NCBI RefSeq assembly: GCF_050920415.1
Contig: NZ_CP169309.1
Source: Escherichia coli
GTDB lineage: Bacteria; Pseudomonadota; Gammaproteobacteria; Enterobacterales; Enterobacteriaceae
Reading direction: 5' to 3' (one strand)
Length of the DNA: 64,000 bases
This document shows, piece after piece, positions 15,872-18,774 of this stretch. A program made the position numbers and the translations under genes. The notes beneath the pieces were generated by a model, which was given only the letters and a program-made list of their open reading frames with translations, was not told where the DNA came from and did no database searches. Numbering within the stretch: position 1 is the stretch's first letter; the number at the start of each line of letters is the position of its first letter.

Positions 15872-18774
<2,903 letters not shown>

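What the first reader, a model, noticed from the sequence alone, without database searches (positions are those of the whole stretch)
17547..17568. Compensatory base-pair difference between the two 23S copies suggests genuine operon heterogeneity
rrlE has catGcctcacagCacaccttcAcagg while rrlB (58988-59012) has catAcctcacagTacaccttcGcagg. In the rRNA sense the first two changes turn a predicted GUGC/GCAU stem into GUAC/GUAU, converting a G-C pair to an A-U pair. This pairing is inferred from complementarity of the local sequence, not from a secondary-structure model. A covarying pair is what a functional rRNA variant looks like and not what sequencing error looks like. A further substitution cluster distinguishes the copies at 17171-17235 versus 58616-58680.
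Basis: partly seen in the sequence, partly recalled or inferred. Interest (0 to 1): 0.3.

Follow-up and report, generated by a model that had tools for sequence, protein, structure and literature searches.

The report
Known 23S rRNA stem allele difference
The two E. coli 23S rRNA genes in this window really do differ by a matched G-C versus A-U base pair in a surface hairpin, but this is a common, long-known E. coli rRNA polymorphism (K-12 has it too), so it is ordinary.

Summary
The window holds E. coli rrnE (23S 15872-18774, minus strand) and rrnB (23S 57317-60218, minus strand). The two 23S genes differ at window 17549/17558/17567 versus 58992/59001/59010.

- **Pairing:** in the Rfam bacterial LSU model, K-12 positions 1220 and 1229 pair with each other in an 8-bp hairpin capped by a GUGA tetraloop. 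rrlE has G-C and rrlB has A-U. Position 1211 lies in an unpaired internal loop.
- **Both alleles are common:** across 5,426 complete E. coli genomes, G-C occurs at 22,237 places and A-U at 9,689. The G·U intermediate occurs at 311 places and the A·C mismatch at 18.
- **K-12 has the same difference:** its rrlH is A-U and its other six copies are G-C.
- **Second cluster:** the three substitutions there are Watson-Crick/wobble switches at paired sites and are rare natural alleles.

There are three caveats.
- Five of the 11 differences are 1-base indels, three of them at Dam, Dcm or homopolymer contexts. They are probably long-read consensus errors.
- The nearest public assembly (MFDS1022581) differs from the window almost only inside the rrn operons, and its rrlB carries G-C. 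The operon-level assignment is therefore not reproducible.
- The polymorphism is already known. It is best explained as old compensated alleles shuffled between operons by gene conversion.

The parts
15872..18774 (-). 23S rRNA gene of operon rrnE (2903 nt in the window)
   Evidence: Full-length RF02541 match, 2850.9 bits. It is flanked by yjaA and purH as in K-12 rrnE.
57317..60218 (-). 23S rRNA gene of operon rrnB (2902 nt in the window)
   Evidence: Full-length RF02541 match, 2844.4 bits. It is flanked by murB and murI as in K-12 rrnB.
17544..17563 (-). rrlE hairpin, K-12 positions 1215-1234: 8-bp stem plus GUGA tetraloop. It holds the G1220:C1229 pair (window 17558:17549).
   Evidence: Rfam consensus structure line. 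The hairpin also folds this way on its own, MFE -8.1 kcal/mol.
58987..59006 (-). rrlB hairpin, K-12 positions 1215-1234, holding the A1220:U1229 pair (window 59001:58992)
   Evidence: Alignment to rrlE and K-12. It has the same predicted fold, MFE -6.1 kcal/mol.
17567..17567 (-). U1211 in rrlE (C1211 in rrlB at 59010): a substitution in the unpaired 5' side of the internal loop below the hairpin
   Evidence: Marked '-' (unpaired) in the Rfam CS line. Counts imply that both bases at 1211 occur with both pair states.
17231..17231 (-). U1547 in rrlE (C in rrlB at 58674). It pairs with G1444, giving G·U versus G-C.
   Evidence: Pair derived from the Rfam CS line. The U allele is in 38 genomes at 94 places.
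17182..17183 (-). C1595 and G1596 in rrlE (U1595 and A1596 in rrlB at 58626/58625). The partners are G1407 and U1406, and both changes are Watson-Crick/wobble switches.
   Evidence: U1595 is in 74 other genomes. G1596 is in 19 genomes.
58619..58620 (-). Site of the U1602 deletion in rrlB, inside the conserved CGUACC; a probable consensus error
   Evidence: All 74 other U1595-bearing genomes keep U1602. U1602 is present in record rrlB.
18739..18740 (-). Site of the G35 deletion in rrlE, at a CCTGG (Dcm) site; a probable consensus error
   Evidence: Sequence context. G35 is present in record rrlE but missing from record rrlB and rrlA. The deletion is found in no other genome of 5,426.

Best explanation
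These are the 23S rRNA genes of E. coli operons rrnE and rrnB. They carry two different, long-established alleles of one base pair, K-12 positions 1220:1229. The pair sits in a small hairpin, which I assign from memory to helix H46 of domain II. One allele is G-C and the other is A-U.

- **Origin (inferred):** the A-U form arose from G-C through the tolerated G·U wobble. Selection for an intact stem keeps the mismatched A·C form very rare.
- **Age:** both compensated forms now segregate across the species and also occur in other Enterobacterales.
- **Spread within a genome (inferred):** the two sites are 9 nt apart and move together as one unit when gene conversion copies a tract from one rrn operon to another. 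Incomplete homogenisation leaves a genome with a mixture of operon alleles.
- **This window's rrlB (inferred):** it looks like an rrnE-type operon with an A-U-type tract beginning between positions 1178 and 1211.
- **Shown directly:** the pairing, the allele frequencies and the mosaic pattern. No functional difference between the alleles is shown or expected.
- **Indels:** the single-base indels between the copies are most likely long-read consensus errors, not biology.
For: - Both genes are full-length bacterial LSU rRNA.
- 1220 pairs with 1229 in the Rfam consensus structure.
- Predicted hairpin MFE is -8.1 kcal/mol for G-C, -6.1 for A-U, -6.1 for G·U and -1.4 for A·C.
- Counts in 5,426 complete E. 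coli genomes: G-C at 22,237 places in 3,976 genomes, A-U at 9,689 in 2,644, G·U at 311 in 99, and A·C at 18 in 6.
- By inclusion-exclusion, at least 1,194 genomes hold both the G-C and the A-U form.
- K-12 rrlH is A-U and its other six copies are G-C.
- The public assembly of the strain has G-C in E, B and G, and A-U in A, C, D and H. Sites 1220 and 1596 show all four combinations among its seven copies.
- In other genera the counts are G-C 55, A-U 7, G·U 1 and A·C 0. Providencia rettgeri RB151 has A-U in four loci, G-C in one and G·U in one within a single genome.
- The three second-cluster substitutions are all Watson-Crick/wobble switches at paired sites and are natural alleles.
- Published work: rrn micro-heterogeneity and homogenisation by recombination in K-12 (PMC4696680); a measured rrn gene-conversion rate of 3.6e-4 per genome per generation (PMC8022953); intragenomic 23S differences in other bacterial species that mostly preserve structure (PMC2672173).
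Against: - The near-identical RefSeq assembly has G-C, not A-U, in rrlB. The difference between these two particular operons may therefore come from assembly or polishing rather than from the chromosome.
- U1595 in window rrlB is absent from all seven copies of that assembly.
- Gene conversion is inferred from mosaic patterns, not observed.
- The helix name and surface location come from memory, not from a tool.
Confidence: 0.85

Rival explanations
1. Both alleles are real and present in the strain, but which operon carries which is an artefact. Reads or polishing corrections from other rrn copies were applied to rrnB or rrnE. On the real chromosome, rrlE and rrlB may be identical at 1211/1220/1229.
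For: - The window differs from NZ_CP169399.1 at 33 positions in 64 kb, and 31 of them lie inside the two rrn operons.
- Record rrlB has the G-C allele.
- Window rrnB is closer to record rrnE (4 mismatches over 5,254 bases) than to record rrnB.
- The rRNA genes of both assemblies carry indels, many of them at Dam or Dcm sites and homopolymers.
- The same rare G35 deletion sits in different operons in the two assemblies and in no other genome.
- Frameshifted CDS are concentrated in repeated prophage DNA.
Against: - The three sites are not in methylation motifs or homopolymers.
- Operon-spanning long reads normally place alleles correctly.
- Window rrlB carries U1595, which no copy in the record has, so it cannot be built purely from the record's alleles.
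- A similar haplotype (K-12-like 1171-1178 block with C1211 and A-U, plus an extra G1176) exists in another strain.
- The two sequences may simply be sister isolates that differ by real conversions. The measured conversion rate makes that plausible.
Confidence: 0.3
2. The substitutions are random sequencing or base-calling errors that happen to look compensatory.
For: The surrounding sequence clearly contains consensus errors in the form of five indels.
Against: - Both states are exact matches to alleles present at thousands of places in other genomes and in K-12.
- The two changes hit both partners of one pair.
- By my rough estimate, the chance of that under random error is about 1e-3.
Confidence: 0.02
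3. The operon-specific alleles are functionally specialised. Ribosomes with the A-U or G-C hairpin would differ in assembly, stability or translation, and the mixture would be maintained by selection.
For: - Both alleles are at high frequency, and many genomes keep a mixture.
- The same dimorphism recurs within a Providencia genome.
- The literature raises the possibility of functional rrn heterogeneity in E. coli (PMC4696680; PMC7682190).
Against: - The change preserves the helix with only about 2 kcal/mol predicted difference.
- Allele-to-operon assignment is not fixed: K-12 has A-U only in rrlH, while this strain has it in four or five operons.
- Neutral compensated polymorphism plus gene conversion explains everything observed.
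Confidence: 0.04

Closest known systems
E. coli K-12 MG1655 rrlH versus rrlB/C/D/E/G (intragenomic 23S micro-heterogeneity)
   Same: K-12 shows exactly the same pair polymorphism. rrlH has A1220:U1229 and five other copies have C1211 with G1220:C1229. rrlA has U1211 with G-C, which is identical to the window's rrlE over these three sites. Heterogeneity among the seven K-12 operons, and its homogenisation by recombination, is published (PMC4696680).
   Different: In K-12 the A-U pair is linked to U1211 and occurs in one operon. The window's rrlB combines C1211 with A-U, apparently the rarest of the four 1211-by-pair combinations: 1,625 places in 360 genomes (compared). The strain's public assembly has A-U in four operons.
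Intraspecific 23S rRNA (rrl) polymorphism in the E. coli ECOR collection (Anton, Martinez-Murcia and Rodriguez-Valera, J Bacteriol 1999, PMC93708)
   Same: From my memory of that paper's abstract, polymorphic sites cluster in a few helices, alternative helix versions occur without intermediates, there is variation between operons, and homogenisation plus transfer are invoked. A citing paper states only that the most variable regions are helices 63 and 98 (PMC7682190).
   Different: The paper could not be read here. I could not check whether it lists the 1220:1229 pair specifically.
Structure-preserving intragenomic 23S diversity in prokaryotes (Pei et al. 2009, PMC2672173)
   Same: In the species that paper analysed (not E. 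coli), most differences between 23S paralogues were in loops, were covariations, or were G:U/G:C conversions. Here the six substitutions are one loop change, one covarying pair and three G:U/Watson-Crick switches.
   Different: That study concerns genomes with above 1% divergence. These two copies differ by about 0.2% in substitutions.
Concerted evolution of rrn operons by gene conversion (Gifford, Dasgupta and Barrick 2020/21, PMC8022953)
   Same: It provides the mechanism and a measured rate for moving allele tracts between E. coli rrn operons. The mosaic seen here fits that mechanism.
   Different: No conversion event is observed directly here. Tract ends are only bracketed, with the 5' end between positions 1178 and 1211.

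Membership tests
Bacterial LSU (23S) rRNA, Rfam RF02541 | Full-length match to the covariance model above the gathering score | tested here: met
   Both copies match model positions 1-2925, at 2850.9 and 2844.4 bits against a gathering score of 50.
Compensatory base change in an rRNA helix | The two variable positions pair with each other in the accepted secondary-structure model | tested here: met
   In the Rfam CS line, stem positions 1215-1222 pair with 1227-1234, so 1220 pairs with 1229.
Compensatory base change in an rRNA helix | Both states are Watson-Crick pairs and differ on both sides | tested here: met
   G-C in rrlE and A-U in rrlB.
Compensatory base change in an rRNA helix | Non-pairing combinations are depleted in the population, with the wobble intermediate tolerated | tested here: met
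   G-C 22,237, A-U 9,689, G·U 311 and A·C 18 places. In other genera the counts are 55, 7, 1 and 0. The counts are not phylogenetically independent.
Known E. coli rrl allele (K-12 rrlH type at this pair) | Identical bases at 1220 and 1229 in a reference-quality genome | tested here: met
   K-12 MG1655 rrlH has A1220 and U1229. A 38-nt exact match to the window's rrlB allele occurs in 360 genomes.
Gene-conversion mosaic among rrn operons | A donor allele is present in other operons of the same genome | tested here: met
   Record rrlA, C, D and H carry C1211 with A1220:U1229.
Gene-conversion mosaic among rrn operons | Incompatible site pairs (all four combinations) among copies of one genome | tested here: met
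   In the record's seven copies, sites 1220 and 1596 show G/A, G/G, A/A and A/G. Recurrent mutation is not excluded.
Gene-conversion mosaic among rrn operons | A conversion event demonstrated between ancestor and descendant | not testable with these tools
   This needs reads or an ancestor genome. The window and the record differ in a pattern compatible with either conversion or mis-assembly.
Long-read consensus indel artefact (for the 5 indels only) | Indels lie in homopolymers or methylation motifs | tested here: inconclusive
   Position 35 is in CCTGG, 687 is in GATC, and 1142 is in an A-run. Positions 1602 and 2775 are in neither context. Many of the 16S indels are at CCWGG or GATC sites or in an A-run.
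Long-read consensus indel artefact (for the 5 indels only) | Indels are not reproducible between assemblies and are absent from other genomes | tested here: met
   Four of the five indel sites differ between the window and the record; only the 2775 deletion is shared. The U1602 deletion is in no other genome. The G35 deletion is only in this strain.
Long-read consensus indel artefact (for the 5 indels only) | Read-level evidence of the error | not testable with these tools
   No reads are available.

The most novel reading that the evidence does not exclude
The mixture of G-C and A-U hairpin alleles among operons might be kept by selection. It recurs in about a fifth or more of E. coli genomes and within a Providencia genome. 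It could produce ribosome sub-populations with different assembly or stress behaviour, rather than being neutral compensated polymorphism shuffled by gene conversion.
Probability: 0.04. Interest if true: 0.55.

Novelty: already known. Interest (0 to 1): 0.1.

Why it matters
There is little new biology here. It is a textbook example of a compensated rRNA stem polymorphism and of incomplete concerted evolution, and it is already visible in E. coli K-12.

The practical points are about data quality.
- The rRNA operons of this assembly carry single-base indels, many of them at Dam or Dcm sites and homopolymers.
- A near-identical public assembly places different alleles in rrnB.
- Operon-level rRNA allele calls from such assemblies, for example in rrn typing or in claims about specialised ribosomes, should not be trusted without flank-anchored reads.

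Tried and rejected
- **Random sequencing error for the pair:** rejected, because both states are frequent natural alleles and the sites are true partners.
- **De novo compensatory evolution in this genome:** rejected. The allele is ancient and widespread, and donor copies exist in the same strain.
- **A 38-nt search for the U1595 plus U1602-deletion haplotype:** it returned 'No match'. I suspect BLAST's low-complexity filter, because the neighbouring overlapping query worked. In any case neither haplotype is present in the public record. I treated the result as uninformative.
- **First seven-copy host table:** it mixed the window's E and B with the record's other five copies, before I realised the window and the record are not identical. 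I redid it.
- **Reading Anton et al. 1999 directly:** not held. What I say about its content comes from memory and one citing sentence.
- **Finding the window's exact source assembly:** none of the 5,426 genomes carries U1595 together with the U1602 deletion, so the source is not in the collection.
- **A·C energy:** I did not use the ViennaRNA energy evaluated on the fixed structure for the A·C state, because a non-canonical pair is not scored meaningfully there. Only the MFE values are cited.

Full report
**What is in the window.** An Rfam scan finds two complete rrn operons on the minus strand. The 23S genes lie at 15872-18774 and 57317-60218, each with 16S, tRNA-Glu and 5S genes. The closest public genome is E. 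coli MFDS1022581, a food isolate carrying an Stx2g prophage, accession NZ_CP169399.1.

**Checking the observation.** The quoted sequences are there, starting at 17546 and 58989. Aligning the two 23S genes gives 11 differences: 6 substitutions and 5 single-base indels. I numbered them against K-12 rrlB using an alignment of all seven K-12 copies.
- The substitutions are at 1211 (U in rrlE, C in rrlB), 1220 (G/A), 1229 (C/U), 1547 (U/C), 1595 (C/U) and 1596 (G/A).
- The indels are at 35 and 1142 (missing in rrlE) and at 687, 1602 and 2775 (missing in rrlB).

**Are the two positions paired?** Yes. In the alignment to the Rfam bacterial LSU model, positions 1215-1222 pair with 1227-1234 around a GUGA tetraloop, and 1220 pairs with 1229. 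rrlE therefore has G-C and rrlB has A-U, which is a true compensatory difference. Position 1211 lies in the unpaired 5' side of the internal loop below it. On its own the 20-nt hairpin folds into the model structure. Its MFE is -8.1 kcal/mol for G-C, -6.1 for A-U and -6.1 for G·U. With A·C the best fold is a different structure at -1.4. From memory of the standard numbering this is helix H46; I did not test that name.

**Is it a known allele?** Yes. I used 36-38-nt queries built so that a mismatch at either site removes every 28-base seed, and counted states in 5,426 complete E. coli genomes.

| Pair state | Places | Genomes |
|---|---|---|
| G-C | 22,237 | 3,976 |
| A-U | 9,689 | 2,644 |
| G·U | 311 | 99 |
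| A·C | 18 | 6 |

- By inclusion-exclusion, at least 1,194 genomes hold both Watson-Crick forms. One O157:H7 strain, for example, has five G-C and two A-U copies.
- K-12 itself has A1220:U1229 in rrlH and G-C in its other six copies. K-12 rrlA has the window's rrlE combination, U1211 with G-C.
- The window's rrlB combination (C1211 with A-U) occurs at 1,625 places in 360 genomes. The rrlE combination occurs at 12,726 places in 2,884 genomes.
- Comparing these counts with the pair totals implies that both bases at 1211 occur with both pair states. That fits 1211 being unpaired.
- A scan of one genome per species found the same flanking sequence in 63 stretches from other taxa. The counts were G-C 55, A-U 7, G·U 1 and A·C 0.
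- Providencia rettgeri RB151 holds A-U in four loci, G-C in one and G·U in one within a single genome.
- These counts are not phylogenetically independent, but the depletion of the non-pairing state is very strong.

**The second cluster.** From the Rfam structure, C/U1547 pairs with G1444, C/U1595 pairs with G1407, and A/G1596 pairs with U1406. Each difference switches a Watson-Crick pair to a G·U wobble or back.
- All three are rare natural alleles. U1547 is in 38 genomes, U1595 is in 74 other genomes and G1596 is in 19 genomes.
- In total the six substitutions are one covarying pair, three wobble switches and one loop change. This is the pattern reported for intragenomic 23S diversity in other bacterial species (PMC2672173).

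**The indels are probably errors.**
- **Sequence context:** the G35 deletion is in CCTGG (a Dcm site), position 687 is the C of GATC (a Dam site), and 1142 is in an A-run. Positions 1602 and 2775 are in neither context.
- **U1602:** it lies in the highly conserved CGUACC, and its deletion is found in no other genome, because all 74 other U1595-bearing genomes keep it.
- **16S genes:** the window and the public record show 16S lengths of 1539-1542 nt. Many of their indels are at CCWGG or GATC sites, in an AT repeat or in an A-run.
- **Frameshifts:** in the public record, frameshifted CDS are dense in a lambdoid Stx2g prophage, which is repeated DNA, but nearly absent from a P2-like prophage. 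This suggests that repeats were left unpolished. That is an inference.

**An unexpected complication.** The window is not identical to NZ_CP169399.1. Over the 64 kb there are 22 mismatches and 11 indels, and 31 of these 33 lie inside the two rrn operons.
- In the record, rrlB carries U1211 with G1220:C1229, C1595 and an intact U1602, the same as rrlE at the finding's site. Record rrlE has C1547, A1596 and no deletions.
- The record's seven copies split into G-C (E, B, G) and A-U (A, C, D, H). The A-U copies also carry an alternative 1171-1178 block.
- Window rrnB is closer to record rrnE (4 mismatches over 5,254 bases) than to record rrnB.
- Its 23S looks like an rrnE-type gene with an A-U-type tract starting between 1178 and 1211, plus U1595, which no record copy has.
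- A similar haplotype (K-12-like 1171-1178 block with C1211 and A-U, plus an extra G1176) exists in strain F6326-C1.
- The G35 deletion occurs in only one of the 5,426 genomes, this same strain, where it sits in rrlB and rrlA rather than rrlE.
- The window therefore comes from the same strain or a clonal sister. The two sequences disagree about which operon carries which allele.
- Real gene conversion between sister isolates is plausible at the measured rate of 3.6e-4 per genome per generation (PMC8022953). Mis-assignment during assembly or polishing is also plausible. I cannot separate the two without reads.

**Most likely explanation (confidence about 0.85).** This is an old, compensated stem polymorphism. 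It probably arose from G-C through G·U to A-U, it is maintained by selection for an intact helix, and it is carried between operons as a 9-nt-apart unit by gene conversion, with homogenisation incomplete.
- Shown here: the pairing, the frequencies and the mosaic. Sites 1220 and 1596 show all four combinations among the record's copies.
- Inferred: the mutational path and the conversion events.
- Rival 1: allele mis-assignment between repeat copies. It concerns only the E-versus-B assignment, and I give it about 0.3.
- Rival 2: random sequencing error, about 0.02.
- Rival 3: functional specialisation of operon alleles, about 0.04.

**Novelty and verdict.** This is already known. Micro-heterogeneity among E. 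coli rrn operons and its recombinational homogenisation are published (PMC4696680). The ECOR rrl study by Anton et al. 1999 is cited, but I could not read it. The exact polymorphism is also present in K-12. Its second test, whether both operons carry the same allele, is partly triggered by the public assembly. Interest is low, at 0.1.

Noticed in passing
window 9943, 17182-20083, 42019, 58619-62236: The window differs from the near-identical RefSeq record NZ_CP169399.1 at 33 positions, 31 of them inside the two rrn operons. The differences include whole allele blocks in 16S (helix h6 at about 79-93, h33 at 1002-1038) and in the 16S-tRNA spacer of rrnB.
   Followed up: partly
window 18739/18740 (23S position 35 of rrlE): The G35 deletion at a CCTGG site is found in only one of 5,426 complete E. 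coli genomes, the same strain, and there it sits in rrlB and rrlA rather than rrlE. It is either dataset-specific consensus noise or a real variant that moves between operons.
   Followed up: partly
window 20049 and 20083 (16S of rrnE): Window rrsE has a 1-base deletion at a GATC site (16S position 708) and a G674C substitution. Neither is present in record rrsE. G674C is in none of the other 16S copies compared, while the 708 deletion is shared with record rrsA.
   Followed up: no
L064-L069 (Providencia rettgeri RB151, NZ_CP017671.1): The same hairpin pair is heterogeneous within this distant genome: A-U in four loci, G-C in one and G·U in one. This suggests recurrent or very old polymorphism.
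   Followed up: no
L011 (NZ_CP169399.1 1178755-1224171, outside the window): An Stx2g-encoding lambdoid prophage is inserted next to ssrA, with many CDS flagged frameshifted. The neighbouring P2-like prophage at pheA (L012, L014) has almost none.
   Followed up: no
23S K-12 positions 137/142, 541-552, 1171-1178, 1723-1735, 1869-1872, 2203-2215, 2794-2802 (alignment): Other block differences between K-12 and this strain, and among K-12 operons, cluster in a few short stretches. Several look compensated, for example T137/A142 versus A137/T142. I did not check them against the structure model.
   Followed up: no
window 18782-18890 and 60226-60334: Rfam calls StyR-44 in the spacer immediately upstream of each 23S gene. 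This is an expected rrn spacer element.
   Followed up: no
window 58603-58640: A 38-nt BLAST query covering CCCCAAACC gave no match at all, while an overlapping 36-nt query worked. I suspect low-complexity masking. In any case the record lacks this haplotype, so the result is not evidence of absence.
   Followed up: yes
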